The position numbers were made by a program, and so were the translations under genes. Source: an uncultured Candidatus Saccharibacteria bacterium (GTDB lineage Bacteria > Patescibacteriota > Saccharimonadia > Saccharimonadales > CAIOMD01). From it: a DNA stretch of 64,000 nucleotides. This document shows positions 35,772 through 62,478 of this stretch, piece by piece. The number at the start of each line of letters is the position of its first letter. The first letter of the stretch is position 1. Location: NCBI GenBank assembly GCA_963716565.1, contig OY970318.1:385934-449933 (forward strand), read 5' to 3'. Below the pieces are notes generated by a model, which was not told the origin of the DNA, searched no databases, and saw nothing but the letters and a program-made list of their open reading frames with translations.

Positions 35772-38700
35772 CTACTGAAGAGTTATCAAGATCCAAACAA
35801 GATTGTTGGCGTCTTTAGTACTAGTAGCTTTACCTAGTAAGGAGCCAGCACTTGGAGTAACTGAAACTGTGGCTATGCCTTCTTGATTACCGGCTATTAT
35901 CATGTCGCCACCAGCAACGGTTGTAAATCTATCTACCTGCACTTGCACATTACCACCTATGGCTACCCCTACTTCGTCACCCTCTGCAAAAGCCTCTTCT
36001 ACAATTACGCCTATAACCTTGGTATCACCTTCCGCCTCGGTGGTAGTTATATAGCCGTCTCTGGTATTGTCTATTACTACCACGCTACCGGCGGCAATTG
36101 GTTTGCTGGCATAGAACTTCTTAGTAATGGCCTGTCTGGTATTCACCTTGGCAGCTAATTGCAGGTCGCTACTAACACTCAAGTTAGCCACCTGAACATT
36201 ACCCGTTACGGTTAGGTTACCGGTGATAGTAGTTAGATTAAGATCAGAGTTGTATTGTAGATTGCTGCTTAGAGTAGCCACTCTGCTACTTAGTTCTTCT
36301 ATGGTTTGTTGTTGTTGTTGAATAGCGGTAGCTAAGTATGGGGTTAGACCAGCGTAAGAGATAGACTTAATGCCCTGGGCGTCGGTATAGACTAAGTCTG
36401 GGAAGAGTTGTTCGTACTCTTGAGCGATGAAGCCAACGTGTAAGGTGTCAGTCTCGGCATCGGCTAGCATGTGGTAAGACACTGTTCTAAGGCCTAGTAT
36501 CTGATTTAGGGCATCACCATAGGTTGTGATGTCTTTCTTGAGTCTTTCGTCGGAAGTACAGGTTATACCGCCAGCCGTATTGGGGGTAACCGTACAGGTG
36601 CCACCAGCGTTTTCAAAGCGGGCTACGGCAGTGCCATCGGCTACTGAAGCACTGCCAACATGTAACAGATAGCCTGGGGAGGTGTTGGAGATACCAACGT
36701 TGCCAGCCATAATAGCCATTTTGCCTTGGTCTAAGTTCAGTATCTGCCCAGTTTGGAAGCTAAAACTGCTAATATTATTCTCTTGAACTGCTAGAATATT
36801 TTGACGGATACCAAAGTCGTAAATACGCAGAACGTCCAAAGCCCCGCTATAAATACCGCCATAAACATACATATTATTGTTGTAGACTACGGCAGCATGG
36901 TAATACCTGGTATAGCTACCATCAGTAACACCGGACGACCAAGTATTAGCAGCAAAGTTATAAATCCGCACCGTACCAAAGACTCCGCTGCTATAACCGC
37001 CAAAGACATACATATTATTGTTGTAGACTGCAGCAGAGTGAGCATATCTGCCATAAGTACCGTCTGACGCTCCGGCCGACCAGGCATCAGTTGTAAAGTT
37101 ATAAATACGCAAACTACCATCGTAATTGCCGTCATAAACGTACATTTTATCACCGTAAACCACTGCGGCGTGTCTGTATCTGGTTATCCCTGTATCGGCA
37201 GTCCCGGCCGACCAGCTGCCTGTAGCGAAATCATAGATTCGCATAGTGTCTAGAGCGCTACCGTCAAAACCGCCAAAAACATACATTTTATTGTTGTAGA
37301 CTACGGCAGAATGTTGCAGCCTACCATTACCAGTGTCGGCAGTCCCGGCCGACCAGCTGCCTGTAGCAAAATCATAGATTCGCATAGTGTCTAGGGCGAT
37401 ACTGCCATTACCACCACCATAAACATACATTTTATTGTTGTAGACTACGGCAGAATGGTAGCCCCTGATATTACCTGTATCGGCAGTCCCGGCCGACCAG
37501 CTGCCTGTAGCGAAATCATAAACTCGCAAAGTATCTAAATAGCTGCCACCATTAATTCCACCAAAAACATACATTTTATTGTTGTAGACTACGGCAGAGT
37601 GAGCATATCTGGCATAACTGGTATCTGAGGTACCGGAAGACCAAGTGGCAGTTACGTCATATGTAACATTTTTATTAACTACAAGGGGGTTATTAGTGGA
37701 TGTGGAGTTCAAGCTAGCGCCGGCATCAGCGTTAAGTTTGGCGGCAGTATGTATAGCATTACCTGCCACATCTAAAGCATAGCCTGGCATAGCCGTACCA
37801 ATCCCCACATTCCCGCTACTGTCAATTACCAATCTGTCACCGGTACCTAATCCGGTTGTAGAGATCTTAAATTTATCACTATCACTATCGTCTATTCCCA
37901 TAGTGAATAGATTAGTGCCATCGGTTAGCTCAAAGCCAATCTGGGAGTCGTAATCACCAGCATTGGTATTAGACACTGTTAGTTGGGTTAGAGCTGTGCC
38001 AGTGTTCATTACTTCTAGCTTTTGGTCAGGCGAAGTGTCGCCGATGCCAACGTTACCACCATCGGCCACTCTAAGTACACTTGCCGCGTCGTGCTGAACA
38101 TCAAAATACCCAGTACCGCTAACGTTATAAACCATATTGTAATTACCTTGGGTAATGGTCGTGTTTTCAGAAAGTGTTCCGCCCAATTTTACGTTTGGCG
38201 CAGTTGCCGTTAAGCCGTTGGAAGCTGTTACATCTGGGTTGATGCTCGCCCAGATGGAGCCATCCCAGTACATAAGTTTCTTGGTGTCCTTTTGAACCCT
38301 TACATCGCCTATAGCATTGGAAGAAGTTCCCGTAAAGTAACAGTCCGTGGGTATACCGTAACCACCGGCATTAGACCACGACAATCCATCAGTGCCATAC
38401 TTTGCGTTGCCTCCAGAACTTGATGCTCTTTCCAAAAAGATTCTATCACCACTTATATATGCCGTGACTAACCAATATGTAGTACTTTGGGTGAGATTAG
38501 CATTCGAAAAGCTATAATAATAAGCATCGCCCGCATTTGGACCAGGAGTTACAGTACTATCGCTAGTTGCCACGAGCGTACCAGGTACACCTCCATTGTT
38601 TGTATATATATAACCCCTTAAAGTTGTAGACGAGGCGTTAGTATTTGACCTACTTTGCCAAAACTGATAAATGCCCATACCATTACCAGTAATGTCCTCC

Positions 38701-41699
38701 GCATGCCAATCAGTAGACGCTGAATAATTGGCATAAAACTGGCTACTCCAGACTCCGCCAACTGAAGCGTACAGACCCAGTACCCCTGGCAGCGCAGCGG
38801 CATTGGCTACAGCAGACTTCCATTGCACGTCCCCAAAGCCACAATTTATGCTGCCCTGTAAACAAACTGTGCCGGTTTCACTGGGCAAAGTAACCGTATA
38901 ATTACTGGCTGAGGTGTTAGCCGTAGCAATAGTAGTAACGCCAGTAGATGTACCTTTCATAGCTAGCATGGAGTTGTCGAAGGTCTTTAGAGCCGTAACG
39001 CTTTGGGCAGTACCTAGTAGCATGTCCCCTACACTCCAGCTGCGGTTAGCACTCAAGTCATAGCTGGTACCGTTAATACTGAGGGTTCGGGAAGTGGGAA
39101 CACCACCTAGGCCACCTAAAGTGACATCTGGGTTAAGAATATCCCAGCTACTATTATTAAAGTACATTATCTTTTTGGTGTCTTGCTGAATGCGAGTGTC
39201 ACCAAGATAAGAGTTAATAACAGCCGATGTGTTCTTATACTGCGGGTTGCGCCAGTAGAACAAACTAAAGCTTGGCGTGCCTTCTGGGTCATAATCGGTA
39301 TCTATGTAAACGGAATCAGCCCCTCCACCATAAGATTGAGCAGTTTCTGCAGAATTGCCATTTCTGTACCATACAAAATAGTACAACACTCCGTTTGTTA
39401 AGTTTAGGTTATCAAATTGCGCATAATACGTAGCGTCAGCAGTTATATTAACTGTGACATAACTGACACCGGCAAGTCTTGTAGTAGGCGCCCCTGCACT
39501 ACTTTGAAATACATAAACTTTAAAGCTGTCGTTATTCCTAGCCCTAATATAACTTCTGTACGTACCCAGTCCCTGACCCGTTATAGGGTAAGCATTTGCA
39601 CTAGCTACGCCCCATGCATCAACAGCTTCGCCCCAAGCTTTTGAATTAATTATATTTTCTGTATTGGTTGGCAACGCCGCCGCATTAGCTACAGCCGCCT
39701 TCCATTGCACGTCCCCAAAACCACAATTTATGCTGCCCTGCAGACAAACCGTACCAGCTTCACTAGGCAGAGTAATCGTGTAGTTGCTAGCTGATGTATT
39801 GGCGGTAGCAATAGTAGTAACGCCAGTGGAAGTACCTTTCATGGCTAACATGGAGCTGTCGAAGGTCTTTAGAGCCGTAACGCTTTGGGCAGTACCCAGT
39901 AGCATGTCCCCTACGCTCCAGCTGCGGTTAGCACTCAAGTCATAACTGGTACCGTTGATGCTGAGGGTTCGGGAGGTGGGAACACTACTGTCACCAGGGC
40001 AGGTTCCCCAACTAGGCGCGGCTCCAGTAGTGCCAATTAGACATTGGCCAGTCGCACCAGCGGCTGTAGCTTGGATAGCGCTAGTAGTGTTACCGTACAG
40101 AACGCCGTATTGAGCGAAGGTAGCGGCACCAGTACCACCGTTAACTACGTCTACGGTAGCTACGGTACCAATTACTCCAGCCGCCGTGTTAGTGACTATG
40201 CCAGCAGTAGATAGGTTGTTAACCGTTAGGCTACTAGCCGTTAGGCCACCATTGAAGGCGGAAGCTGTAGAAGTATTAGCCCCTCTACCAGTAACGTCAG
40301 CTAGGTCGTCGGCTTCGGCAGTCAGGTAGCTGCCAGCTGGTTGTTTGTTATTGAAGATATTCCAATCGGTGTCGCTTAAAGCACCAGTGGTAGCAGCCGA
40401 AGCTAGAGCTAAGCTGAGTTGTTGGGTGCTTAAGCCCAGTCCGTTAGCGGTACCTAGGGTGACGGCACTATGTAAGTCGCTAGTTAAAGCTACTACGCCA
40501 GTAGCGGCTGGTAGGGTTAGAGTGTAGTTGTTAGCTGAGGTGTTAGCCGTAGCAATAGTAGTAACGCCAGTGGAAGTACCTTTCATGGCTAACATAGAGT
40601 TGTCGAAGGTCTTGAGAGCGGTAACGCTTTGGGCAGTACCAAGTAGCATATCCCCTACACTCCAGCTGCGGTTAGCACTCAAGTCATAGCTGGTACCGTT
40701 AATACTGAGGGTTCGGGAAGTGGGAACACCACCTAGGCCACCAAGTGAAAGGGCTGACCAACTAGGAATGTTAGTGTTAATACCATCGCCTATGGAAGTT
40801 AGAACGTAAGTATCGGTGGTAGTGTTGCCGCCTAATCTAGTTGGTGTGCCAGCTAGGCCGCCGTAGATGAGGTCGCCCAGGGTGGACATAGGGTTGGTCA
40901 TGCCGCCACCGCCAGCCAAAGCAAAGTCGCTAGCTTCATGGCCGTCTAGCAAATCAGCATTAAGATTAGTGACTTTGTAGTTAGAATCTACCCCGAATGG
41001 AGCTGATGAACCAGTGGCACCACCATTGAAAGCCGGGATGCCAGTGACGACTTCGTTCTGGTTGAGGTTGAAGTAGTTAGCCTTGGCTGTTGACCAACTG
41101 GGATCGGTTTCGTTAGTTAGAAAGCCCGATACATTGACGGTTGGGATATTGATGTCTGGGATATTGATGACGTCACCACTGTTGCCGGCTGTAACGATCA
41201 TCTGGTATTCATCGCCATCGTAGAAGTACAGCTGGTTGGTTTGGTTGTCGACGTAGATTTGGCCAATGACAGGGTTAGCTGGAGCTTCACTGGGAGTGAC
41301 TACTACTGAGCCGTTAACTCGAAGATTACCATTGATGTCTAGTTGGCTGATTTGGCCTAGGGCGGTGGCGAGGTCGGTATTTAATCTACTCAATGATAGC
41401 GATGCTAAAGTATAGGCTTCATCATTGTTGGTATTCTGAGGCTCATAACTATTATCCATTCGATTAATAGTTATAGCTAGAAGAATAATTAACAGGCCGC
41501 CTAGCAAACTAGAAACGACAACAAAGAATCCAGGTTTACGAATTTTGGGGCGATAACCAAAAAAGGACTTTAGTGGAGTGGGCGTTGCCGGCGTAAGAAC
41601 TGAGCTGTTTTCTAGCACACTGGGCTGGGGCACAACAATGCCGTCTGACATGGGACTGATGGTTGGTGGAGTTGGGGCTGGTAGGGTGTCTGGGTTCAT
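35772..41699 (-). CDS. giant fibre protein G1 (1975 aa): N-terminal TM anchor, tail-fibre-like repeats, Kelch beta-propeller, S74 chaperone domain, unique C-terminal tail
   Basis: Pro/Thr-rich N-terminus (MNPDTLPAPTPPTISPMSDGIVVPQPSVLENS) followed by one TM helix (FFVVVSSLLGGLLIILLAITI). Tail-fibre motifs IYVDNQTNQLYFYDG and NADLLDGHEASDFA. Three ~250-aa repeats (..VPTSRTLSINGTSYDLSANRSWSVGDMLLGTAQSVTALKTFDNSMLAMKG..TLPAATG..). Six Kelch-type blades (..AVVYNNKMYVFGG..). Then SDERLKKDITTYGDALNQILGLRTVSYHM..HVGFIAQEYEQLFPDLV. Confidence 0.8.
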   Translation of the reverse strand: MNPDTLPAPTPPTISPMSDGIVVPQPSVLENSSVLTPATPTPLKSFFGYRPKIRKPGFFVVVSSLLGGLLIILLAITINRMDNSYEPQNTNNDEAYTLASLSLSRLNTDLATALGQISQLDINGNLRVNGSVVVTPSEAPANPVIGQIYVDNQTNQLYFYDGDEYQMIVTAGNSGDVINIPDINIPTVNVSGFLTNETDPSWSTAKANYFNLNQNEVVTGIPAFNGGATGSSAPFGVDSNYKVTNLNADLLDGHEASDFALAGGGGMTNPMSTLGDLIYGGLAGTPTRLGGNTTTDTYVLTSIGDGINTNIPSWSALSLGGLGGVPTSRTLSINGTSYDLSANRSWSVGDMLLGTAQSVTALKTFDNSMLAMKGTSTGVTTIATANTSANNYTLTLPAATGVVALTSDLHSAVTLGTANGLGLSTQQLSLALASAATTGALSDTDWNIFNNKQPAGSYLTAEADDLADVTGRGANTSTASAFNGGLTASSLTVNNLSTAGIVTNTAAGVIGTVATVDVVNGGTGAATFAQYGVLYGNTTSAIQATAAGATGQCLIGTTGAAPSWGTCPGDSSVPTSRTLSINGTSYDLSANRSWSVGDMLLGTAQSVTALKTFDSSMLAMKGTSTGVTTIATANTSASNYTITLPSEAGTVCLQGSINCGFGDVQWKAAVANAAALPTNTENIINSKAWGEAVDAWGVASANAYPITGQGLGTYRSYIRARNNDSFKVYVFQSSAGAPTTRLAGVSYVTVNITADATYYAQFDNLNLTNGVLYYFVWYRNGNSAETAQSYGGGADSVYIDTDYDPEGTPSFSLFYWRNPQYKNTSAVINSYLGDTRIQQDTKKIMYFNNSSWDILNPDVTLGGLGGVPTSRTLSINGTSYDLSANRSWSVGDMLLGTAQSVTALKTFDNSMLAMKGTSTGVTTIATANTSASNYTVTLPSETGTVCLQGSINCGFGDVQWKSAVANAAALPGVLGLYASVGGVWSSQFYANYSASTDWHAEDITGNGMGIYQFWQSRSNTNASSTTLRGYIYTNNGGVPGTLVATSDSTVTPGPNAGDAYYYSFSNANLTQSTTYWLVTAYISGDRIFLERASSSGGNAKYGTDGLSWSNAGGYGIPTDCYFTGTSSNAIGDVRVQKDTKKLMYWDGSIWASINPDVTASNGLTATAPNVKLGGTLSENTTITQGNYNMVYNVSGTGYFDVQHDAASVLRVADGGNVGIGDTSPDQKLEVMNTGTALTQLTVSNTNAGDYDSQIGFELTDGTNLFTMGIDDSDSDKFKISTTGLGTGDRLVIDSSGNVGIGTAMPGYALDVAGNAIHTAAKLNADAGASLNSTSTNNPLVVNKNVTYDVTATWSSGTSDTSYARYAHSAVVYNNKMYVFGGINGGSYLDTLRVYDFATGSWSAGTADTGNIRGYHSAVVYNNKMYVYGGGNGSIALDTMRIYDFATGSWSAGTADTGNGRLQHSAVVYNNKMYVFGGFDGSALDTMRIYDFATGSWSAGTADTGITRYRHAAVVYGDKMYVYDGNYDGSLRIYNFTTDAWSAGASDGTYGRYAHSAAVYNNNMYVFGGYSSGVFGTVRIYNFAANTWSSGVTDGSYTRYYHAAVVYNNNMYVYGGIYSGALDVLRIYDFGIRQNILAVQENNISSFSFQTGQILNLDQGKMAIMAGNVGISNTSPGYLLHVGSASVADGTAVARFENAGGTCTVTPNTAGGITCTSDERLKKDITTYGDALNQILGLRTVSYHMLADAETDTLHVGFIAQEYEQLFPDLVYTDAQGIKSISYAGLTPYLATAIQQQQQTIEELSSRVATLSSNLQYNSDLNLTTITGNLTVTGNVQVANLSVSSDLQLAAKVNTRQAITKKFYASKPIAAGSVVVIDNTRDGYITTTEAEGDTKVIGVIVEEAFAEGDEVGVAIGGNVQVQVDRFTTVAGGDMIIAGNQEGIATVSVTPSAGSLLGKATSTKDANNLVWILITLQ
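36264..36554 (-). other. peptidase S74 intramolecular-chaperone autoproteolysis domain (variant A) of G1
   Basis: S-x4-K dyad (SDERLK) followed by the conserved HVGFIAQE...FPELV-type block and a QQQQQ coiled segment. Confidence 0.6.
36790..37650 (-). other. six-bladed Kelch-type beta-propeller in G1
   Basis: Six tandem ~48-aa units, each Y(A/R)RY.H(S/A)AVVY(N/G)(N/D)KMYV(F/Y)GG....LR(I/V)Y(D/N)F(A/T)T..WS(A/S)G. Confidence 0.6.
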
Positions 41700-48134: not shown

Positions 48135-48136
48135 GC

Positions 48137-48325
48137 CTACATTCCCCTCTTAGTTAGGCCTGAGGATAAAGAAGCCCTGCTACCAAAAACCACAAAAAGC
48201 ACCGAACTCATCTTAGCGAGGGTGCACTTAACAATTTGGCTGGTGTTTTTTTGCCTTGTCATACCTTTGGTTTTATTTTTGTTTAGTACGGTTTGTCTTG
48301 ATTTGCTTTTTACTGTTTTGGACAA
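48137..48325 (-). repeat. ~190-bp leader immediately upstream of the G2 ATG, identical to 55118-55306 upstream of G3
   Basis: The identical TTG-initiated 62-codon ORF is called at both sites. The leader ends in AAGAGGGGAATGTAGGC-ATG (GAGGGG Shine-Dalgarno ~9 nt before the ATG). Confidence 0.7.
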
Positions 48326-48335
48326 ACTAAGGCTA

Positions 48336-48364
48336 TTGTGGGCCCACTACCCTCTCAATTCAAG
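48336..48364 (-). promoter_or_regulatory. candidate sigma70-like promoter for G2 (TTGAAT - 17 nt - CACAAT), minus strand; the equivalent for G3 is at 55316-55344 (TTGAAG - 17 nt - CACAAT)
   Basis: The motif and 17-nt spacing are conserved between the two otherwise diverged inter-gene spacers, right at the 5' edge of the identical leader. Confidence 0.25.
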
Positions 48365-48560
48365 ATAGAAAATGCAAATTATGTGTTCAGTAAAAGTTTG
48401 GTAAAAAACTAATGTTTTTAGTGCTGAATAGTAGTCTTTAATACTACATTACAGACATTGATAGTAAAACTTTCTAGCTTAGGCCTTTTGTTTTTTGTTG
48501 TAATAATTATTACAGATTCCAAAAAACAAATTATTTATCCACAGCTTGTTTATGTTTTTC

Positions 48561-55115: not shown

Positions 55116-55117
55116 GC

Positions 55118-55306
55118 CTACATTCCCCTCTTAGTTAGGCCTGAGGATAAAGAAGCCCTGCTACCAAAAACCACAAAAAGCACCGAACTCATCTTAGCGA
55201 GGGTGCACTTAACAATTTGGCTGGTGTTTTTTTGCCTTGTCATACCTTTGGTTTTATTTTTGTTTAGTACGGTTTGTCTTGATTTGCTTTTTACTGTTTT
55301 GGACAA
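55118..55306 (-). repeat. second copy of the ~190-bp leader (upstream of G3)
   Basis: Identical to 48137-48325. Confidence 0.7.
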
Positions 55307-55539
55307 ACTAAGGCTATTGTGGGCCCACTACCTCTGAACTTCAAGACATAAAATGTAAAAAAAGTATTCATTCGAAGCTTGGTAAAATACGGTTGTCTCA
55401 CAGTACAAATAGTAGTCATTAATACTACAGTTAAGACAGGGGGTTGCGCTATGCCCCATCTTTATAACTAGAAATATGTTGTAATTACCAATACAGCTGC
55501 TAGCGCTACTCAATACTTATCCACAACTAAAATTTTATT

Positions 55540-58500
55540 TTATTCAATTACTACGTAATCAAAGATGTAGGTAGTATTTTCTTGTGGCAATTGTGTGAGG
55601 TTAATAGTAAAGCCGTCTGATGAAGCACCTCTAAAGATGTTCAATTCGGCGGCATTGGCATCACCTGCCGTTAATATAACTCTTGGCTGCTTGCCAAATG
55701 GTCTATTAAATATCAACTCTACCAATTTATCGGCCAATACATTCTTGCCCGTAGTAATTGTTATGGTTCCGCTGGTGTCATTGCCTAGTACTTCGGTTAC
55801 GGCTCCTTCGCCGGCGGCGACACCAGCTACTATTGTAGGCGTCTCACCAGCGGAGATGATATGCCCATTAACACTCAAGTTAGCCACCTGAACATTACCC
55901 GTTACGGTTAAGTTACCGGTGATAGTAGTTAGATTAAGATCAGAGTTGTATTGTAGATTGCTGCTTAGAGTAGCCACTCTGCTACTTAGTTCTTCTATGG
56001 TTTGTTGTTGTTGTTGAATAGCGGTAGCTAAGTATGGGGTTAGACCAGCGTAAGAGATAGACTTAATGCCCTGGGCGTCGGTATAGACTAAGTCTGGGAA
56101 GAGTTGTTCGTACTCTTGAGCGATGAAGCCAACGTGTAAGGTGTCAGTCTCGGCATCGGCTAGCATGTGGTAAGACACTGTTCTAAGGCCTAGTATCTGA
56201 TTTAGGGCATCACCATAGGTTGTGATGTCTTTCTTGAGTCTTTCGTCGGAAGTACAGGTTATACCGCCAGCCGTATTGGGGGTAACCGTACAGGTGCCAC
56301 CAGCGTTTTCAAAGCGGGCTACGGCAGTGCCATCGGCTACTGAAGCACTGCCAACATGTAACAGATAGCCTGGGGAGGTGTTGGAGATACCCAGATTACC
56401 GGCAGAATTAACGCGAAGTCGTTCTGCGTTATTTGAATATATTGCCGTATACGGTGATCCGCTGTTTGTGCTTACATAAACTCCGCCATATATCGTGCTA
56501 AGACCACTATCATACGCAAGCCAACTAGACGTTCCCGTAGATGATATCACTGCAAGATAGCTCGCATTTCTATTAACACTTTCAACCACAACTGTTGCGT
56601 TAGAAGCAACGTCTCCTGTGTTTGCAGTATTATAGACGTGCAATGAACGCCCTAACGTTGTTATTGGGCTGCCTGTTCCTATCCCCATGTTTCCGCTACT
56701 ATCAATCACCAGCCTGTCATTAGTGCCTAATCCCGTAGTAGAGATCTTGAACTTATCACTATCACTGTCGTCTACACCCATAGTAAATAGGTTCGTGCCG
56801 TCAGTTAGCTCAAAGCCAATTTGGCTATCGTAATCACCAGCGTTAGTATTAGATACTGTTATCTGAGTTAAGGCCGTGCCAGTGTTCATTACTTCTAGCT
56901 TTTGGTCAGGAGAGATGTCGCCGATGCCAAGGTAACCAGCAGTAGTCACCCTAAAGCCTACATTCCACGACGACACTGTTGAGCCAGCGGCTACGCCTGA
57001 GCTATACAAAAGACTAAAGTAATCGCTATTTTTTTGAAGTTGGTAGTTAGAACCAGCATCAGAACTAATCCAGTTTGTACCGTTAAAATACGAATCGAAC
57101 GCCATAGCCATGTTGTCATGCGACTGATTAAGCTGTTGATAAAGCGGATAGGTGTCGGCGGATGTGAATATCTTAATATGAGGTCCAGCTGCTGCACTTG
57201 AGTCTGTACCAGAAAGCGTCAATTTACTATCCGGGCTACTTGCCCCAATACCAATATTACCAGCGAAGTAGTTATTGTTAGCTGAGCTATTGTAAATGCC
57301 AAAGCTGCCGCTTGGTGCCGTTGATGTGCCCATTAACAAATACGTGTTGTTGGTCGCGCCAGCAAGCGAATTAATATTTATGCCAACTTTATTGGTGTTA
57401 GCTTGTACGCCATCAATATAAATTCCCTTCCCAGTCGTCACCGTGCCAGCAACAGTTCCTTGATAAATGTACAGCGGTACTAGTTCGGTGGTAGCCGTAC
57501 TAGCACTAGTGTTAGTGTATACTTCTATGCCTCGCATACTAGAAATTGCACCGCCACCAGTTAGATTATTACCAACAATAAAACGAGAGTTTCTAAACAC
57601 TGCTTGATTGGATGCGGAGCTAGCCGTCAAGGTACGGGCTACCACTAATGACATATCTGCTGTATCGGCAGTATTAACTTGAGTCTGCGTAACCCCAATA
57701 CCAACAGTTGGACCAGATGCAGCAACTTGATCGCTAACATTAAGTCTATAAGAAGGGCTAGCAGTGCCTATGCCAACATTACCTAGGTCATTAACTACCA
57801 ATGCAACTGCGTTGCTAGAATCCCTAGCAATTAGAATGGCTGGCAGTTTATCCGGGCTAGCGTCGTTGGCATTATCACTAAAGGCAGTATTTACAGTTAA
57901 ACTGGTGTTAGAAGCAATGGCGGTGACTGTTCTGGTTTCGCCAGTTACGGTTATTCGATCACCAACTACTAGTTCGGTAGTAAATAAGGTACCTACGCCT
58001 GTTACGGTGGTAGAAGCAGTTGGATCAATACTACCCGTTAAAACACTTGTAGCTGCACCAGTAAAACGACCAGATCCAGCAACATCAAGTTTGGTCAAAG
58101 GCGTAGTAGTGTTAACGCCTACATTCCCAGTAAAATAGCTAGTTCCAGTTATTGTGTTAACGTTAAAGTAAGAAGCCCCAAGTCTATTCACCACATTTAG
58201 AATTGTTCCGTCGCTTGCAGTAGACGAAAGCTGCCCTATGGTTACGTCTTTATCATTCACCAGCAAGGCCCCCCTCGTTCTGCCAGCACCAGCTTTCATA
58301 ACTTCGAAAATACCAGTTGGGTTAGTAGTGCCGATGCCCACATTACCGGAACTATCAATTCGCAAGCGCTCTGATTTTGCTGTAGCACCAATTGCAGTGG
58401 TAGAAAATGTAAAATATGAGCCCCTAGCCGACTCGGTGAAGTTTTCTGCTGCAAACATTTTAATTGCGGCAGCAGTTTCCGTTCCCCAAGTTGACACCCC

Positions 58501-61500
58501 ATAGCCGGAACCTGCAAGGCCACCGAGCTGATCATCAGCCAGGACGGCAGTCGGCGAAGCGGCAGTTCCCCTTGCCCTTCTTGCAACAAACGCAGAACCG
58601 CTTGATGTGCCATAACTACTAAGTGTCATTTTTAGGTCAGCATCACTCGACAACTCTAGCAAAGAACTCGGGGCTGTCGTCCCTATCCCAACATAGCCAC
58701 TGGTATTCATGACGCTTAATCTATTTACGTTGTTGGTTCTAAGATGAAAATCATGTGACGTCATAGATCCAGCAAAAACACTACTACTACCACCCGAAAC
58801 ACCCATAACAAACTCTATATCATTTGTTACGTCCCTACCCATAAAATATGCTTGACCGGAACCCTGCACAGAAATGGCTGAGTCCATTTGTGCTTGACTT
58901 ATAAGAGCTGGAGAACTTTCTATGCTTTGCCCGGGTTGCACAACTGAAAGACGAAAAGTTGGAGCCGTAGTGCCAATACCAACATTGCCATTCATCATAA
59001 AAGCTGAATATGTTCCATCGCCGTTCAAATAGGCGGGTTTAGCGTTTGAATATAAAGCATAGCTACTACCGGCTAGGTCAGAAGCAGAGCCAAGAGTCGC
59101 ATAACCAGATGAGTTCACCCTACCAGTAACAACGGATGCACCATTGCCAAACAAAACCCCCCCCGTACCAGCATCGTAACTAAGGTAGACGGAACCAGTA
59201 CTATAAGGATTAAGAACTAAATTATTTGTCGCGACTCCTCTTATTGATGGAACAGTCGGCGAGTTAACACCACCCGAGTAAATATCTAAATAGCTACCAA
59301 CACTTAAATTCTGCCTTGGGGCTGTATTGCCACTGATACCAATATTCCCACTACTATCTATTACTAGCCTGTCATTAGTACCTAATGCAGTGGTAGAGAT
59401 TTTGAATTTATCACTATCGCTATCATCTACACCAAGCGTAAAAGTATTTGTGCCATCGGCCAGCTCAAAGCCGATTTGGGCATCATAGCTACCGGCATTG
59501 ATGTTGGAAACTGTCAACTGGGTATTAGCCGCCGTAGCACTCATAACTTCTAGTCTTTGGTCGGATGAAGAGTCGCCGATACCAACATTACCGCTACTTA
59601 ATATTCTCATCGATTCCGTAAGGGTTGAATCCGTTACGTTGCGTCGAGTAGAAAAGATAATATCCCCCCTGGTGTTACTACTGCCGTCGGTGACGTATCC
59701 TTTAATTGCAGCAAATTTCCACTGTTGGCTACCAGCACTGAAAACAATAGCCCCTCCGTTTCCGACTGCTCCTCCTGCACCACCATCTAATAGCAAAGCG
59801 CCTCCCATTGCCCCTGCTGTATTAAAATCTCCAGTAGTTTGACCAGTTCCTGTCACAACAAGCTGAGATTGGGGGTTGGTAGCTCCTACTCCCACATAAC
59901 CATTGTTTAGAATAGTCATAGCCGTAGTCGCACCAGCGTCACCAACCTTGAACTGTAAGTTAGCGTTAGTTAGGGTGTTGCCAGCTACAGCCGAGTTGCC
60001 TTGTAGGGTTAGAGTACCATTAGCAGCTGTTGAACCGTAAACGGTTGGGGTAGTTGTGGATGTGGCGAAAGTTGGGTTGTCGACAGTGCTAATCGTTACG
60101 GTGTCAGTAGCTCCAGCTACGGTAGTGATGTTAGTACCTTGAGCTATGGTAATAGTGTCGGTGTCGGTAATGGATTGGGGGGTACCACTGCTACCGGCTA
60201 GGGTTAAGGAGTTCATGCCACTGCCACCTACTCCACAAGCTCCCCAGCTAGGTGCCGCTCCAGTAGTGCCAATTAGACATTGGCCAGTTGCACCGGCGGC
60301 TGTAGCTTGGATAGCGCTAGTAGTATTGCCGTACAGAACGCCGTATTGAGCGAAGGTAGCGGCACCAGTACCACCGTTAACTACGTCTACGGTAGCTACG
60401 GTACCAATTACTCCAGCCGCCGTGTTAGTGACTATGCCAGCAGTAGATAGGTTGTTAACCGTTAGGCTACTAGCCGTTAGGCCACCATTGAAGGCGGAAG
60501 CTGTAGAAGTATTAGCCCCTCTACCAGTAACGTCAGCTAGGTCGTCGGCTTCGGCAGTCAGGTAGCTGCCAGCTGGTTGTTTGTTATTGAAGATATTCCA
60601 ATCGGTGTCGCTTAAAGCACCAGTGGTAGCAGCCGAAGCTAGAGCTAAGCTGAGTTGTTGGGTGCTTAAGCCCAGTCCGTTAGCGGTACCTAGGGTGACG
60701 GCACTATGTAAGTCGCTAGTTAAAGCTACTACGCCAGTAGCGGCTGGTAGGGTTAGAGTGTAGTTGTTAGCTGAGGTGTTAGCCGTAGCAATAGTAGTAA
60801 CGCCAGTGGATGTACCTTTCATGGCCAGCATAGAGTTGTCGAAGGTCTTTAGAGCAGTAACGCTTTGGGCAGTACCCAGTAGCATGTCCCCTACACTCCA
60901 GCTGCGGTTAGCCGTTAGATCATAGCTGGTGCCGTTAATGCTGAGAGTTCGGGAGGTGGGGACGCCACCACCTGGGCACACATCCCAGCTAGGAGTAGTA
61001 TTAGAGCCAGACAATAAACACAGTCCAGCGGTAGCTGTGCCAGATAATACTTGCATTTGAGTGGCGCTAGTCCAGACAATACCACCATTGCTGGCTGTTA
61101 GGTCAGCGTTAGTGCCACCGTTAGCCAGTGGAACAGTAGCTACGGTACCAATTACTCCAGCCGCGGTGTTAGTGACCATGCCGGCGGTGTTAAGGGCAGA
61201 AAATGTTATTGTTCCAGAGCTAGTTATGCCAGCAGCTGCAGCAATTTGACCGCTAGTATTTACCTGGAATAAATCGCCGCTACCAACCGTCAACATGGCT
61301 AATGGAGAGGTATCGCCAATGCCAAAGTTGCCAGCCGCAAACCTACCCCATTCAGTAACAAGACCTGTAGTGCCAGCTCCAAAAATCATCGGTCGGCTAG
61401 ATGAACCATTAAGAATATTTAGGCTTGTAGTAGCCGAGGAGGCACGTATAAAAGCCGCTGATGGATTTGAGGTACCACTAGAACTAAGACCTATTTCTAT

Positions 61501-62478
61501 AATTCGACCAGTATCGTTTACCGCTTGTATAGACGCAAAAGCGTTTGTTCCATTGGAAGCGTTCGTAAAGCTAATCCCCCGGTACCAGGAATCACTATTT
61601 ACCCTAACATCTAGCGGATAGCTCGGAGTGCTAGTGCCAACACCTATAGCTGTATCAAATATACCCGTACCACTTATCCAAAAATTGGCCGTTTGGGCTG
61701 ATGTGTTCTGGTTTTGAATATAATTACCACTTCCTGAGCCAGCCAAAGCAAAATCACTGGCCTCATAACCATCTAGTAGATCAGCGTTAAGATTAGTGAC
61801 CTTGTAGTTAGAATCTACCCCAAATGGGGCTGATGAACCAGCAGTACCACCATTGAAGGCTGGAATGCCAGTGACTACTTCGTTCTGGTTGAGATTGAAG
61901 TAGTTAGCCTTGGCTGTTGACCAACTGGGATCGGTTTCGTTAGTTAGAAAGCCCGATACATTGACAGTCGGAATGTTGATGTCTGGGATGTCAATGACGT
62001 CACCGCTGTTGCCGGCCGTAACGATCATCTGGTATTCATCGCCATCGTAGAAGTACAGCTGGTTGGTTTGGTTGTCGACGTAGATTTGGCCAATGACAGG
62101 GTTGGCTGGAGCTTCACTGGGAGTAACTACTACCGAACCGTTAACTCGAAGATTACCATTGATGTCTAGTTGGCTGATTTGGCCTAGGGCGGAGGCAAGG
62201 TCGGTGCCAGAACTATTAATTGGCAAGGATAACAAAGTGTAAGCACCGTCTTGGCTAGGGCCGGTCTGCGAAGCCTGTCGCATCTTGCCAGCCAAAGCAA
62301 CCAATAAGACTACCAACAAGCTGGTAAGCACAATAAATAACACAGGCCACATTCTCTTTTTCGAAGGGTTGGCCTCAACAACAGACGCTCGCAGCACAGG
62401 ATGTTCTGGTAATTTTGAAGCCATCGCCGTTGTAGGGCGCGGGTTTTTCACTGGTTCTTCGATATAATCAATATCCAC
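55540..62478 (-). CDS. giant fibre protein G4 (2312 aa): distinct cytoplasmic N-terminus, TM anchor, tail-fibre-like repeats, ~12 GNVGIGTTxP-headed beta-repeats (no propeller), S74 chaperone domain (variant A), C-terminal beta module
   Basis: GTG start at 62478 (an ATG alternative lies at 62424). After the TM it shares the G1-type tail-fibre N-terminal region. The repeats are GNFGIGDTSP/GNVGIGTTAP/GNVGIGTTNP/GNIGIGASSP... C-terminus has the same SDERLKKDITTYGDALNQ... block as G1 (~55960-56250), followed by NGHIISAGETPTIVAGVAAGEGAVTEVLGNDTSGTITITTG...YIFDYVVIE. Confidence 0.8.
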   Translation of the reverse strand: MDIDYIEEPVKNPRPTTAMASKLPEHPVLRASVVEANPSKKRMWPVLFIVLTSLLVVLLVALAGKMRQASQTGPSQDGAYTLLSLPINSSGTDLASALGQISQLDINGNLRVNGSVVVTPSEAPANPVIGQIYVDNQTNQLYFYDGDEYQMIVTAGNSGDVIDIPDINIPTVNVSGFLTNETDPSWSTAKANYFNLNQNEVVTGIPAFNGGTAGSSAPFGVDSNYKVTNLNADLLDGYEASDFALAGSGSGNYIQNQNTSAQTANFWISGTGIFDTAIGVGTSTPSYPLDVRVNSDSWYRGISFTNASNGTNAFASIQAVNDTGRIIEIGLSSSGTSNPSAAFIRASSATTSLNILNGSSSRPMIFGAGTTGLVTEWGRFAAGNFGIGDTSPLAMLTVGSGDLFQVNTSGQIAAAAGITSSGTITFSALNTAGMVTNTAAGVIGTVATVPLANGGTNADLTASNGGIVWTSATQMQVLSGTATAGLCLLSGSNTTPSWDVCPGGGVPTSRTLSINGTSYDLTANRSWSVGDMLLGTAQSVTALKTFDNSMLAMKGTSTGVTTIATANTSANNYTLTLPAATGVVALTSDLHSAVTLGTANGLGLSTQQLSLALASAATTGALSDTDWNIFNNKQPAGSYLTAEADDLADVTGRGANTSTASAFNGGLTASSLTVNNLSTAGIVTNTAAGVIGTVATVDVVNGGTGAATFAQYGVLYGNTTSAIQATAAGATGQCLIGTTGAAPSWGACGVGGSGMNSLTLAGSSGTPQSITDTDTITIAQGTNITTVAGATDTVTISTVDNPTFATSTTTPTVYGSTAANGTLTLQGNSAVAGNTLTNANLQFKVGDAGATTAMTILNNGYVGVGATNPQSQLVVTGTGQTTGDFNTAGAMGGALLLDGGAGGAVGNGGAIVFSAGSQQWKFAAIKGYVTDGSSNTRGDIIFSTRRNVTDSTLTESMRILSSGNVGIGDSSSDQRLEVMSATAANTQLTVSNINAGSYDAQIGFELADGTNTFTLGVDDSDSDKFKISTTALGTNDRLVIDSSGNIGISGNTAPRQNLSVGSYLDIYSGGVNSPTVPSIRGVATNNLVLNPYSTGSVYLSYDAGTGGVLFGNGASVVTGRVNSSGYATLGSASDLAGSSYALYSNAKPAYLNGDGTYSAFMMNGNVGIGTTAPTFRLSVVQPGQSIESSPALISQAQMDSAISVQGSGQAYFMGRDVTNDIEFVMGVSGGSSSVFAGSMTSHDFHLRTNNVNRLSVMNTSGYVGIGTTAPSSLLELSSDADLKMTLSSYGTSSGSAFVARRARGTAASPTAVLADDQLGGLAGSGYGVSTWGTETAAAIKMFAAENFTESARGSYFTFSTTAIGATAKSERLRIDSSGNVGIGTTNPTGIFEVMKAGAGRTRGALLVNDKDVTIGQLSSTASDGTILNVVNRLGASYFNVNTITGTSYFTGNVGVNTTTPLTKLDVAGSGRFTGAATSVLTGSIDPTASTTVTGVGTLFTTELVVGDRITVTGETRTVTAIASNTSLTVNTAFSDNANDASPDKLPAILIARDSSNAVALVVNDLGNVGIGTASPSYRLNVSDQVAASGPTVGIGVTQTQVNTADTADMSLVVARTLTASSASNQAVFRNSRFIVGNNLTGGGAISSMRGIEVYTNTSASTATTELVPLYIYQGTVAGTVTTGKGIYIDGVQANTNKVGININSLAGATNNTYLLMGTSTAPSGSFGIYNSSANNNYFAGNIGIGASSPDSKLTLSGTDSSAAAGPHIKIFTSADTYPLYQQLNQSHDNMAMAFDSYFNGTNWISSDAGSNYQLQKNSDYFSLLYSSGVAAGSTVSSWNVGFRVTTAGYLGIGDISPDQKLEVMNTGTALTQITVSNTNAGDYDSQIGFELTDGTNLFTMGVDDSDSDKFKISTTGLGTNDRLVIDSSGNMGIGTGSPITTLGRSLHVYNTANTGDVASNATVVVESVNRNASYLAVISSTGTSSWLAYDSGLSTIYGGVYVSTNSGSPYTAIYSNNAERLRVNSAGNLGISNTSPGYLLHVGSASVADGTAVARFENAGGTCTVTPNTAGGITCTSDERLKKDITTYGDALNQILGLRTVSYHMLADAETDTLHVGFIAQEYEQLFPDLVYTDAQGIKSISYAGLTPYLATAIQQQQQTIEELSSRVATLSSNLQYNSDLNLTTITGNLTVTGNVQVANLSVNGHIISAGETPTIVAGVAAGEGAVTEVLGNDTSGTITITTGKNVLADKLVELIFNRPFGKQPRVILTAGDANAAELNIFRGASSDGFTINLTQLPQENTTYIFDYVVIE

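What the first reader, a model, noticed from the sequence alone, without database searches (positions are those of the whole stretch)
35772..62478. Tandem array of four giant, membrane-anchored, phage-tail-fibre-like proteins with S74 chaperone domains
Four co-oriented ORFs of ~2.0-2.3k codons fill 27 kb and are visibly more G+C-rich than their flanks. Each has a short Pro/Thr-rich cytoplasmic N-terminus and one TM helix, so the cell anchors it by its N-terminus rather than a virion. The body is built from tail-fibre motifs (IYVDNQTNQLYFYDG; NADLLDG(H/Y)EASDFA; ..KTFDNSML..TLPAATG..; GNVGIGTTxP). Each ends with a peptidase-S74 intramolecular-chaperone domain (S-x4-K dyad: SDERLK or SSIKYK), the module that drives trimerisation and autoproteolytic maturation of phage tail spikes. 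There are no capsid, terminase, portal or baseplate genes; the neighbours are parAB and ribosomal genes. I read this as a cellular family of trimeric surface fibres made from domesticated tail-fibre parts, with distal binding modules. In an episymbiotic, reduced-genome bacterium these are prime candidates for host-cell attachment. I am not aware of a described system with this layout.
Basis: partly seen in the sequence, partly recalled or inferred. Interest (0 to 1): 0.9.

Follow-up and report, generated by a model that had tools for sequence, protein, structure and literature searches.

The report
Membrane-anchored phage-fibre-like giants in Saccharibacteria
A tiny parasitic bacterium (Saccharibacteria) carries four tandem giant genes for membrane-anchored surface fibres built from phage tail-fibre parts; these resemble the adhesive fibres recently found in the predator Bdellovibrio and are good candidates for how it recognises its host.

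Summary
Four co-oriented minus-strand ORFs (1975, 2136, 2184 and 2312 aa) fill 35772-62478. Each has one N-terminal transmembrane helix and a Peptidase_S74 domain with a Ser-x4-Lys dyad. The rest of the window is housekeeping, with no phage genes.

The reading needs four corrections.
- A described relative exists: the Bdellovibrio MAT (mosaic adhesive trimer) fibres. They are the only solved structures protein D hits by sequence.
- The MAT N-terminal domain is absent. These proteins instead have a TM helix plus their own juxtamembrane domain. That anchor heads a large family of metagenomic giants (median about 2100 aa, up to 5857 aa).
- S74 is not the end of the protein. A further 180-215 residues follow it (coiled coil, then a conserved beta-sandwich or a phage-cement-like domain). 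Most family members have such an end domain and no S74.
- The extra G+C sits in codon position 2, so it reflects amino-acid composition, not foreign origin.

The paralogues are recombination mosaics with swapped tips (Kelch propeller, DUF5122-type propeller, beta-helix). The locus (287-aa membrane protein, giant genes, parAB, signal peptidase I) is conserved in related genomes.

Verdict: a new variant of a known kind. Fibre identity is well supported; trimerisation, self-cleavage, anchoring and host adhesion are inferred.

The parts
35772..41699 (-). Gene A, 1975 aa. Order: TM anchor, N-domain, fibre modules (three copies of the 'SRTLSING...KTFDxSML...TLPxxxG' unit and two ~190-aa insert domains), Kelch propeller tip, S74, coiled coil, phage-cement-like end domain.
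41454..41534 (-). A: transmembrane helix (aa 56-82). It is preceded by a Pro/Thr-rich 55-aa N-terminus ending in RPKIRKPG.
   Evidence: Kyte-Doolittle 2.84. AF2 models a 27-residue helix with pLDDT 92-97.
41154..41444 (-). A: juxtamembrane N-domain (aa 86-182; 'LGQISQLDINGxLxVNG...PxNPxxGQIYVDxxTNQLYFYDG'). This is the family-defining anchor module. All four proteins have the same module.
40260..40748 (-). A aa 318-480: the most widely shared fibre module (VPTSRTLxING..DLSANRSW; GxLSxTDWNxFNNKQ). It is present in A-D at 92-99% nucleotide identity. It also occurs in Patescibacteria, Bacteroidota and Bdellovibrio proteins.
36780..37721 (-). A: Kelch beta-propeller (aa ~1327-1640), the module just before S74 and therefore the presumed distal tip.
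   Evidence: PF24681 E 2.4e-48; Kelch_1 E 1.3e-44
36387..36554 (-). A: Peptidase_S74 core (aa 1716-1771), with Ser1716 and Lys1721 (SDERLK). It is 99.8% nucleotide-identical to the D block.
35775..36173 (-). A: C-terminal type-1 end domain (aa 1843-1975), Phage_cement_2-like.
   Evidence: PF09956 E 2.2e-5, 25.2 bits against a cut-off of 24. The same domain ends P0031, P0292, P0328 and P0330.
41724..48134 (-). Gene B, 2136 aa. TM aa ~58-84; DUF5122-type propeller region aa ~1290-1700 (nt 43035-44267); S74 aa 1863-1922 (nt 42369-42548; SSIKYK); type-2 end domain aa 2022-2136 (nt 41727-42071).
48561..55115 (-). Gene C, 2184 aa. Close paralogue of B: the first ~660 aa are 96-100% identical to B (100% to ~aa 420) and the C-terminal ~300 aa 78-100%. 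The propeller tip region is only 30-55% identical. S74 aa 1911-1970 (nt 49206-49385); type-2 end domain aa 2070-2184 (nt 48564-48908).
55540..62478 (-). Gene D, 2312 aa. TM aa ~42-68 (nt 62275-62355). Long body with 12 'GNxGIGT'-type repeats. S74 aa 2077-2132 (nt 56083-56250). Type-2 beta-sandwich end domain, aa ~2199-2312 (nt 55543-55884).
58297..58629 (-). D aa 1284-1394: module homologous to crystallised Bdellovibrio MAT fibre segments (8OML, 8OL4, 8ON4, 8OND).
   Evidence: E 7e-9 to 3e-3; BLASTP E 4e-21 to a Bdellovibrio MAT
62808..63671 (-). Conserved partner gene: a 287-aa membrane protein with an N-terminal hydrophobic segment, an ectodomain and hydrophobic C-terminal segments. It lies directly upstream of the first giant gene.
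   Evidence: 43% identical to the syntenic ORF in L001. 34% identical, E 8e-30, to the syntenic ORF in L096. No Pfam, PHROG, NCBIfam or PADLOC hit.
48135..48560 (-). Spacer upstream of B. Its gene-proximal ~225 nt are identical to those of the spacer upstream of C (55116-55539). It begins with TGTGGATAA, the reverse complement of the DnaA-box consensus.
55116..55539 (-). Spacer upstream of C, with the same features as the spacer upstream of B.
62479..62807 (-). Spacer upstream of D. It holds the TGTGGATAA motif and a terminator-like hairpin (62646-62631) after the 287-aa gene.
33215..35625 (.). Conserved flank: signal peptidase I (33215-34009, +), parB (33948-34823, -) and parA (34810-35625, -).
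   Evidence: The same neighbourhood occurs in L083, L084 and L096.

Best explanation
The four genes encode cell-surface fibres of a Saccharibacterium (Patescibacteria/CPR). They work like the mosaic adhesive trimer (MAT) fibres of Bdellovibrio but are anchored differently.

Proposed mechanism, with the status of each step.
(1) Each protein is inserted by Sec as an N-in/C-out signal-anchor. A 40-57-residue cytoplasmic tail, a K/R cluster and a ~27-residue helix are shown in the sequence. The topology and the absence of cleavage are inferred.
(2) The 1,600-2,000-residue ectodomain is exported. It folds from its C-terminus, where the S74 intramolecular-chaperone domain and the following coiled coil trimerise and template a long fibre. 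The fibre is built from phage tail-fibre-like modules. Domain presence is shown; trimerisation is inferred from the S74 family and from homology to crystallised trimeric MAT segments.
(3) The Ser/Lys dyad cuts the chain at A S1716, B S1863, C S1911 and D S2077. This would release a 236-274-residue cap (chaperone, coiled coil and end domain). It would expose the module just upstream as the distal tip: a Kelch propeller (A), DUF5122-type propellers (B, C) or a beta-helix (D). The dyad is shown; cleavage is inferred.
(4) The fibre would be of the order of 100 nm. This scales from about 0.07 nm per residue for Bd3182 in PMC10769870. It would reach through the envelope and bind surface glycans or proteins of the host bacterium.
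(5) Recombination among the tandem paralogues shuffles tips and stalk blocks and so diversifies specificity. The mosaic pattern is shown; its purpose is inferred.

The conserved 287-aa membrane protein encoded just upstream is probably an assembly or docking partner (inferred from synteny only).
For: S74 domain.
- S74 HMM hits lie above the curated cut-off in all four proteins, and the Ser-x4-Lys dyad is intact.
- A Foldseek search of the C-terminal model against viral structures gives 35 hits at E<=1e-3. They are dominated by tail-fibre proteins, many carrying the S74/intramolecular-chaperone domain.

Relationship to MAT fibres.
- The only solved structures that protein D matches by sequence are Bdellovibrio MAT fibres, 8OML/8OL4/8ON4/8OND, E 7e-9 to 3e-3.
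- BLASTP of D against a Bdellovibrio S74-type MAT gives E 4e-21 for a fibre module and 2e-14 for S74. B against another MAT gives E 6e-8 for the DWNxFNNKQ motif.
- The MAT paper shows surface exposure, trimeric crystal structures, S74 self-cleavage at Bd3182 S782 and diverse swappable tips.

N-terminal anchor.
- Each protein has a single hydrophobic helix with positive charges on its N-side.
- AF2 models this segment as a helix with pLDDT 92-97.
- The TM plus N-domain arrangement recurs in 78 of the 85 anchor-type proteins among the top 150 hits of an exhaustive profile search. Median TM start is about residue 60 and median protein length 2123 aa.
- No conserved AxA-type cleavage motif follows the helix, and there is no LPxTG.

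Cellular, not viral.
- Neighbours are housekeeping genes.
- Giant genes lie beside parA/parB in L083, L084 and L096; L084 and L096 also have signal peptidase I there. The 287-aa gene lies upstream of the giant gene in L001 and L096.
- GC3 matches the flanking genes.
- The full N-domain is absent from 2.9 million viral contigs; only the generic fibre motif is found there.

Mosaic paralogues.
- Blocks of 92-99.8% nucleotide identity alternate with unalignable tips.

Organism.
- RF1 is about 70% identical to named Saccharibacteria/Saccharimonadales proteins.
- The genes sit on a 799-kb contig.
Against: - No experiment or multimer model supports trimerisation or cleavage. The S74 part of the monomer model has low confidence, and the best PDB fold hit (MyRF ICA) is only E 0.0096.
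- Cleavage of the hydrophobic segment by signal peptidase cannot be excluded without a dedicated predictor or proteomics.
- In the wider anchor family only 2 of 82 other members carry S74, while 27 end in one of the two conserved end domains. The conserved end domain, not S74, may therefore be the key C-terminal element, and cleavage would discard it. This is unexplained.
- A conserved end domain is odd for a variable adhesin tip.
- Deleting MAT genes in Bdellovibrio does not significantly reduce predation, so even the model family's function is not firmly established.
- In Saccharibacteria, host attachment has so far been attributed to type IV pili.
- No expression data are available.
Confidence: 0.6

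Rival explanations
1. The fibres belong to the cell's own envelope and are not host adhesins. They could act as spacers, a coat or S-layer-like canopy, or wall-spanning struts. In this reading the conserved C-terminal end domain binds the bacterium's own wall or the neighbouring 287-aa membrane protein.
For: - The C-terminal end domains are conserved across very divergent family members, which is unlike a specificity tip.
- The type-2 domain also occurs on ~300-aa TM-anchored mini-proteins.
- A's end domain weakly resembles the ectodomain of the 287-aa neighbour (E 0.002).
- LytR-CpsA-Psr (31629-33221) and signal peptidase I lie next to the array, and sortase further along at 20236-20850.
Against: - Tips just upstream of S74 vary between paralogues while the stalks are near-identical. 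That pattern is typical of receptor-binding diversification.
- Kelch and propeller tips are typical ligand binders.
- The homologous MAT fibres are surface-exposed and one binds glycans.
Confidence: 0.15
2. They are tailspike-like enzymes, that is depolymerases on a stalk. They would degrade host capsule or cell-wall polysaccharide rather than simply adhere, as many S74-bearing phage tailspikes do.
For: - The S74 domain is classically attached to endosialidase and other beta-helical depolymerase tailspikes (Pfam name; MAT comparison with the P22 tailspike).
- D has a long beta-helix-type repeat region.
- Fold hits include tailspikes.
Against: - No glycosidase, lyase or esterase family was detected in any of the four proteins by Pfam, NCBIfam or PHROGs.
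- The modules preceding S74 in A-C are propellers with no catalytic signature.
- The PDB tailspike fold hits are not significant (E > 0.01).
Confidence: 0.12
3. The hydrophobic segment is a cleaved (long) signal peptide. The fibres would then be released or only loosely attached: secreted trimeric lectins, or bacteriocin-like or decoy fibres.
For: - A signal peptidase I gene lies beside the locus in the window and in two of the related loci, L084 and L096.
- D has 'ALAG' at the end of its hydrophobic stretch.
- MAT proteins use cleaved signal peptides.
Against: - The N-region is 40-57 residues and the hydrophobic core about 23-27 residues. Both are far longer than typical Sec signal peptides.
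- No conserved small-x-small motif follows the helix across 45 family members.
- The fibre's first conserved module starts only ~5-20 residues after the helix, and there is no other attachment domain. This fits a helix that is itself the anchor.
Confidence: 0.1
4. The genes are a prophage remnant: leftover tail-fibre genes of an integrated phage.
For: PHROG and phage-database hits to tail-fibre proteins. Phage_cement_2-like domain.
Against: - No other phage gene was found among the window's ORFs.
- Chromosomal synteny is conserved in genomes whose RF1 is 79-81% identical and whose ParA is 54% identical.
- GC3 is native.
- N-terminal TM anchors replace virion-attachment domains.
- Phage matches are only 26-30% identical.
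- The N-domain is absent from viral contigs.
Confidence: 0.03

Closest known systems
Bdellovibrio bacteriovorus MAT (mosaic adhesive trimer) fibre family (Caulton et al., Nat Microbiol 2024, PMC10769870; structures 8OML, 8OL4/8ONF, 8ON4, 8OND)
   Same: - Cellular (not virion) long fibres built from phage tail-fibre-like modules.
- S74-terminated and non-S74 subgroups.
- The variable tip is placed distally and the conserved anchor at the N-terminus.
- Many paralogues per genome, with evidence of tip swapping.
- Direct sequence similarity: E 7e-9 to MAT crystal structures, E 4e-21 and 2e-14 to a Bdellovibrio S74 MAT, and shared DWNxFNNKQ, GNVGIGT and PxSPxxGxIY motifs.
- The bearer lives by attaching to other bacteria.
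   Different: - MATs have a cleaved signal peptide plus a conserved ~130-aa beta-rich N-domain. That domain is absent here (hhalign probability 0.1-0.2%, under 5 bits).
- Here the anchor is a 40-57-aa cytoplasmic tail, a TM helix and an unrelated juxtamembrane domain.
- These proteins are about twice as long (2.0-2.3 k aa against about 1 k aa).
- 180-215 extra residues (coiled coil plus a conserved end domain) follow S74.
- The genes form a tandem array beside parAB with a conserved 287-aa membrane partner.
- The host organism is a likely monoderm Patescibacterium, not a Gram-negative predator. Patescibacteria are not among the MAT-bearing taxa listed in that paper.
Phage tail fibres and tailspikes with the C-terminal intramolecular chaperone (Peptidase_S74 / ICA) domain, e.g. 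K1F endosialidase and T5 pb1
   Same: S74 domain with a Ser-Lys dyad at the C-terminal side of a fibre. Tail-fibre PHROG and BFVD matches. The whole C-terminal unit (S74 plus beta-sandwich) has a counterpart in uncultured Caudovirales proteins, E 1.7e-10.
   Different: There is no virion context and no N-terminal tail-attachment domain; a TM anchor takes its place. Identity to any sequenced phage is only 26-30% over at most 23% of the protein. The proteins are much longer.
MYRF (eukaryotic membrane-bound transcription factor with an ICA/S74 domain)
   Same: S74/ICA domain in a membrane-anchored cellular protein. It is the best PDB fold hit for the C-terminal model (7DC3, probability 0.99, E 0.0096).
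   Different: In MYRF the TM helix is C-terminal to the ICA domain, and cleavage frees a nuclear N-terminal fragment (general knowledge of the family). Here the TM is N-terminal and the released piece would be extracellular. Apart from the ICA domain there is no relationship.
Trimeric autotransporter adhesins (YadA-like)
   Same: Long trimeric surface adhesin fibres with modular stalks. Some metagenomic homologues combine YadA-head repeats with S74 (P0078; L002).
   Different: No C-terminal beta-barrel anchor or YadA domains were found in the window proteins. The polarity is opposite: here the N-terminus is at the membrane.

Membership tests
Peptidase_S74 / intramolecular chaperone auto-processing domain (PF13884) | HMM match above Pfam's gathering threshold | tested here: met
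   48.4-54.2 bits against a cut-off of 22, E 1.1e-12 to 1.7e-14, in all four proteins
Peptidase_S74 / intramolecular chaperone auto-processing domain (PF13884) | Catalytic Ser with Lys five residues downstream (SDxxxK consensus) | tested here: met
   A and D have SDERLK. B and C have SSIKYK, where Asp is replaced by Ser. The Ser aligns to profile position 1.
Peptidase_S74 / intramolecular chaperone auto-processing domain (PF13884) | Homotrimerisation and autoproteolytic release of the C-terminal fragment | not testable with these tools
   Only monomer prediction was available, and the S74 region of that model has low pLDDT. Needs a multimer model or biochemistry.
Bdellovibrio MAT fibre family | Fibre body homologous to MAT beta-helix and fibre modules | tested here: met
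   D aa 1284-1394 matches 8OML/8OL4/8ON4 at E 7e-9 to 9e-8. BLASTP E 4e-21 to a Bdellovibrio MAT.
Bdellovibrio MAT fibre family | C-terminus either S74 or an alternative capping or tip domain | tested here: met
   S74 is present. The wider anchor family shows the same S74 / non-S74 split.
Bdellovibrio MAT fibre family | Cleaved signal peptide followed by the conserved ~130-aa beta-rich MAT N-terminal domain (stated for all 21 MATs) | tested here: not met
   A profile of 8 Bdellovibrionales MAT N-domains was compared with the window proteins and their N-domain alignment. hhalign probability 0.1-0.2%; hmmsearch under 5 bits.
Bdellovibrio MAT fibre family | Surface exposure on the cell | not testable with these tools
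   Requires immunolabelling or cryo-ET
Phage tail fibre (virion component / prophage gene) | Encoded among phage structural and packaging genes | tested here: not met
   All other window ORFs tested are housekeeping genes or lack any phage match. Chromosomal synteny is conserved.
TM-anchored giant fibre family defined here (TM + 'LGQxSQLxxNG...GQIYxDxxTNQLYxYxG' N-domain) | N-terminal TM helix immediately followed by the conserved N-domain | tested here: met
   All four proteins match profile positions 2-99 at residues ~86-182. 78 of the 85 anchor-type proteins have the preceding TM.
TM-anchored giant fibre family defined here (TM + 'LGQxSQLxxNG...GQIYxDxxTNQLYxYxG' N-domain) | Conserved C-terminal end domain (type 1 cement-like or type 2 beta-sandwich) | tested here: met
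   A has type 1; B, C and D have type 2. 27 of 82 other members have one at the extreme C-terminus. This is a lower bound, because many sequences are fragments.
Sortase-anchored (LPxTG) surface proteins | C-terminal LPxTG sorting signal | tested here: not met
   None of the four proteins has an LPx[TSA]G motif, although a sortase gene lies at 20236-20850.
Trimeric autotransporter adhesins | C-terminal YadA-type beta-barrel anchor | tested here: not met
   No such Pfam hit
Known anti-phage defence systems (PADLOC) | Match to any defence-system protein model | tested here: not met
   No hits for A, B, D or the 287-aa protein

The most novel reading that the evidence does not exclude
These genes exemplify a large, undescribed Patescibacterial family of giant fibres. 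The family has a conserved TM plus juxtamembrane base, a hypervariable body of 1,000-5,800 residues made of phage tail-fibre parts, and a conserved C-terminal cap. On this reading the fibres are the main host-range determinants of episymbiotic CPR bacteria. In the S74-bearing subset, self-cleavage sheds a trimeric cap to unmask the binding tip. Gene conversion among tandem paralogues swaps tips, giving the cell a phage-like receptor-binding repertoire fixed to its membrane.
Probability: 0.3. Interest if true: 0.8.

Novelty: new variant of a known kind. Interest (0 to 1): 0.62.

Why it matters
How ultrasmall episymbiotic bacteria (Saccharibacteria and other CPR) choose and hold their host cells is largely unknown. 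In the papers I could read, type IV pili are the main experimentally implicated attachment factor, with a few Tn-seq 'adhesins' besides.

This locus gives concrete candidates: four fibres of roughly 100 nm, with different tips, in a genome of only about 0.8 Mb. Together they take up about 26 kb, roughly 3% of that genome.

It also extends the idea of phage-fibre-like adhesins in bacteria that attach to other bacteria, from Gram-negative predators (MAT) to Patescibacteria. Here the solution to anchoring is different.

The work exposes a family of hundreds of metagenomic giants defined by conserved ends. It also raises a specific puzzle: why is a conserved end domain placed after a self-cleaving S74 domain?

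The tips are testable reagents for identifying hosts of uncultivated CPR.

Tried and rejected
- Exact-sequence look-ups of protein A, of ribosomal protein S2 and of P0001 (the database copy of A) found no contig. The source record could therefore not be read beyond the window.
- Cluster look-up gave no informative names.
- No tRNA or Rfam features were found in the window.
- SBBP (PF06739) gave no hit; DUF5122 hit instead.
- A Foldseek search of the C-terminal model against the PDB gave nothing at E<=1e-3. The fold of the type-2 end domain therefore stays unassigned beyond 'beta-sandwich also present in uncultured Caudovirales proteins'.
- The N-terminal model was confident only for the TM helix and a ~35-residue beta-meander. 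That is too little for a meaningful fold search, so none was run.
- Literature searches combining Patescibacteria, Saccharibacteria or CPR with S74, intramolecular chaperone, tail fibre or giant proteins found no description of these proteins. Four candidate papers were read without finding them.
- A word-based search with the C-terminal 237 aa returned only 22 mostly short fragments.
- tblastn of the N-domain against the fetched genome loci found it only in L001. The other loci end before the N-termini of their giant genes.
- Foreign origin inferred from G+C was rejected after the codon-position analysis.
- Prophage origin and a known defence system were rejected.


Full report
**1. The observation**

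The window has four co-oriented minus-strand ORFs at exactly the stated coordinates: A 35772-41699 (1975 aa), B 41724-48134 (2136 aa), C 48561-55115 (2184 aa) and D 55540-62478 (2312 aa). A and B are 24 nt apart. The other genes are separated by spacers of 329-426 nt.

All four match Pfam Peptidase_S74 above the curated threshold (E 1e-12 to 2e-14). Profile position 1 falls on a serine with a lysine five residues later. The motif is SDERLK in A and D and SSIKYK in B and C.

Each protein has a single strongly hydrophobic segment near residue 56-84 (42-68 in D). It follows a 40-57-residue N-terminus that ends in a K/R cluster. AlphaFold models this segment as a 27-residue helix with pLDDT 92-97.

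Protein A carries a Kelch propeller. B and C carry a propeller that hits DUF5122 (PF17164), not SBBP.

The higher G+C is real, but it lies in codon position 2 (0.49-0.52 against 0.33-0.41). GC3 equals that of the flanks. It therefore reflects a composition that is 44% Thr, Gly, Ala and Ser, and is no sign of foreign DNA.

**2. Context and organism**

Every other ORF tested is housekeeping or envelope-related.
- parA, parB, signal peptidase I, LytR-CpsA-Psr, RF1, PrmC, S2, EF-Ts.
- aminoacyl-tRNA synthetases, SecA, FtsX, GreA, sortase, RseP and a heliorhodopsin.

There are no capsid, terminase, portal or integrase genes, and no tRNA or Rfam features.

RF1 is about 70% identical to proteins named Candidatus Saccharibacteria or Saccharimonadales. 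The giant proteins are recorded on a 799,209-bp contig. This is a reduced-genome Saccharibacterium.

The locus is conserved.
- In two relatives (RF1 81% and 79% identical), an S74-bearing giant gene lies directly upstream of parA.
- A more distant relative (ParA 54% identical) has giant genes on both sides of parAB and signal peptidase I. One of them has Kelch repeats.
- The 287-aa membrane protein upstream of D recurs immediately upstream of the first giant gene in two other loci: 43% identity in L001 and 34% identity, E 8e-30, in L096.

This rules out a prophage remnant.

**3. Anatomy**

The paralogues are mosaics. At the nucleotide level, blocks of 92-99.8% identity alternate with unalignable regions.
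- A and D share the S74 block at 99.8% identity.
- A aa 262-566 equals B/C aa 305-609 (96-99%), and D aa 504-747 equals A aa 323-566 (97%).
- B and C are 96-100% identical over the first ~660 residues (100% to ~aa 420), and the ~225 nt upstream of each gene are identical too. Their tip regions are only 30-55% identical.

Homologues outside the genome share mainly short, highly conserved fibre motifs (VPTSRTLTING..DLSANRSW; GYLSSTDWNTFNNKQ; GNVGIGT).

A genome-wide scan with the most widely shared module found it in Patescibacteria (Parcubacteria, Moranbacteria, Gracilibacteria, Paceibacterota, Saccharibacteria). It also found it in Bacteroidota, TM6 and repeatedly in Bdellovibrio.

**4. The closest known system**

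The Bdellovibrio hits led to the MAT (mosaic adhesive trimer) family (Caulton et al. 2024, PMC10769870). That paper describes 21 fibre proteins of about 1000 aa. Thirteen end in S74 with an SDxxxK motif and eight have other tips. All have a signal peptide followed by a conserved ~130-aa beta-rich N-domain. The paper shows surface exposure, trimeric crystal structures, self-cleavage of Bd3182 at S782 and evidence of tip swapping. Its table of MATs in other organisms lists predators and an Omnitrophica bacterium, but no Patescibacteria.

The relationship is more than an analogy.
- The only PDB sequences protein D matches are MAT structures 8OML, 8OL4, 8ON4 and 8OND (E 7e-9 to 3e-3).
- BLASTP of D against an S74-type MAT read from a B. 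bacteriovorus locus gives E 4e-21 for a fibre module and 2e-14 for S74.
- B matches another MAT through the DWNxFNNKQ motif (E 6e-8).

The defining MAT N-domain is nevertheless absent. A profile of eight Bdellovibrionales N-domains gives hhalign probability 0.1-0.2% and under 5 bits against the window proteins. The proteins work like MATs and share their building blocks, but they are not MAT family members in the strict sense.

**5. A separate family defined by its ends**

I ran an exhaustive profile search with the ~100-residue juxtamembrane domain (LGQISQLDINGxLxVNG...PxNPxxGQIYVDxxTNQLYFYDG). It found 3297 representative proteins at E<=1e-3 and 784 at E<=1e-10. The hits are of two kinds.
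- Some proteins repeat only the generic 'GQIYxD..TNxLYxY' fibre motif. This motif also occurs on 11 viral contigs.
- Others have a single full-length match at residues ~60-200. There are 85 of these among the best 150 hits.

Of those 85, 78 have a TM helix immediately before the domain (median start at residue 60). Their median length is 2123 aa and the maximum 5857 aa. The full domain was never found on viral contigs.

The C-termini are conserved as well.
- After S74, the window proteins continue with a predicted coiled-coil helix and then an end domain.
- In B, C and D this is a ~110-residue beta-sandwich ('NGHIISAGDTPT...GNDTSGTITITTG...FDYxVIE'; pLDDT 89-96).
- In A it is a Phage_cement_2-like domain (PF09956, E 2.2e-5, above the cut-off).
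- Among 82 other anchor-type proteins, 23 end in the first type and 4 in the second. Only 2 have S74.
- The beta-sandwich also ends ~300-aa TM-anchored mini-proteins that lack S74.
- It has structural counterparts in uncultured Caudovirales proteins: E 1.7e-10 over 279 columns, and E 3.9e-9 with rmsd 3.1 Å over 123 columns.

The window's S74-bearing genes are therefore a minority branch of a large family. That family has a TM plus N-domain base, a variable fibre and a conserved cap. The split parallels the S74 / non-S74 division in MATs.

**6. Mechanism**

Best explanation, confidence about 0.6.
- The protein is inserted as an N-in/C-out signal-anchor.
- The ectodomain is exported.
- Trimerisation is nucleated at the C-terminus by S74 and the coiled coil.
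- Autoproteolysis at the Ser releases a 236-274-residue cap.
- This exposes the upstream module (Kelch, DUF5122 propeller or beta-helix) as the distal tip.
- The fibre would be of the order of 100 nm, scaled from the ~55-nm, ~760-residue Bd3182 fibre.
- The tip binds host-cell surface structures.
- Recombination among paralogues diversifies the tips.

What is shown: the domain order, the dyad, the TM helix, the mosaicism, the synteny and the homology to MAT and phage fibres. What is inferred: topology, trimerisation, cleavage, fibre length and host binding.

The main unexplained point is why a conserved end domain sits distal to a self-cleaving site.

Rivals are an own-envelope structural role (0.15), stalked depolymerases (0.12), cleaved and secreted fibres (0.10) and a prophage remnant (0.03). 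No PADLOC defence model matches, and there is no LPxTG signal.

**7. Novelty and verdict**

I found no paper describing S74-type or tail-fibre-like fibres in Patescibacteria (papers read).

The concept itself, cellular fibres made from phage tail-fibre parts in bacteria that attach to other bacteria, was published for Bdellovibrio in 2024. This is therefore a new variant of a known kind. It differs in its anchor, its doubled length, the domains after S74, a conserved partner gene and locus, and a new phylum.

Interest is moderate to high (0.62). It gives testable host-recognition candidates for Saccharibacteria and reveals a large family of giants, but every functional step still needs experiment.

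Noticed in passing
window 48535-48543, 55517-55525, 62769-62777 (+ strand): There are three exact copies of the DnaA-box consensus TTATCCACA, and these are the only ones in the window (0.59 expected; 5 of 100 shuffles reach 3). Each lies 17-38 nt after the stop codon of the upstream gene, at the head of the long spacers preceding B, C and D. On the coding strand it reads TGTGGATAA, then ~20 nt, then CTGTAWT...ATTACAAC. It could be a shared regulatory site. Given the nearby parAB, it could instead be origin-proximal DnaA boxes.
   Followed up: partly
window 8354-14093 (- strand): Essential genes appear fragmented. SecA is split into at least three overlapping ORFs (12070-12777, 12710-13342, 13242-14093). 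The M16 peptidase is partial, and 8.4-10.8 kb holds only ORFs under 120 aa. An AspRS-like gene is also split (18231-18935 and 18965-20065). This suggests indel errors in the assembly (or pseudogenes), yet the four 6-7-kb giant ORFs are intact.
   Followed up: partly
window 17363-17992 (-): A heliorhodopsin gene (PF18761, E 5e-83) in this reduced genome.
   Followed up: no
window 62808-63671 (-) and 35775-36173 (-): The ectodomain of the conserved 287-aa membrane protein weakly resembles the Phage_cement_2-like C-terminal domain of protein A (23% identity over 92 aa, pairwise E 0.002). This hints at a common fold or an interaction between partner and fibre cap.
   Followed up: partly
window 33215-34009 (+): A signal peptidase I gene (TIGR02227, E 2e-38) sits between lytR and parB on the opposite strand and overlaps the parB 3' end by ~60 nt. 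The same gene neighbours parB in L084 and L096.
   Followed up: partly
window 20236-20850 (-): A sortase gene is present, although none of the four giant proteins has an LPxTG signal.
   Followed up: partly
window ~38600-39700 and ~37800-38400 (protein A aa ~660-850 and ~950-1130): Two copies of a ~190-aa insert domain ('VCLQGSINCGFGDVQWK..AVANAAALP...') lie between repeats of the shared fibre unit. They had no homologue among the 120 listed hits and no Pfam match. They may be an additional binding module unique to A.
   Followed up: partly
L002 (850-kb contig, ENA ERZ21869602): Another genome-sized contig (850 kb), whose taxonomy I did not check, has its own tandem array of large proteins: 1360 aa with YadA-head repeats plus S74, then 1151, 1284 (S74), 900 (S74) and 693 aa. 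Tandem S74 fibre arrays thus recur in at least one other genome.
   Followed up: no
P0245, P0246, P0248 (~300 aa, metagenomic): These are mini-versions: a cytoplasmic tail, a TM helix, a short beta-helical stalk and the type-2 end domain, with no S74. They show that the end domain is displayed on its own.
   Followed up: partly
homologue list: Many distant homologues carry precomputed Pfam families PF26696 and PF25918, which are not in the local Pfam copy. JGI names them 'predicted heme/steroid binding protein', which is probably a misannotation of fibre repeats.
   Followed up: no
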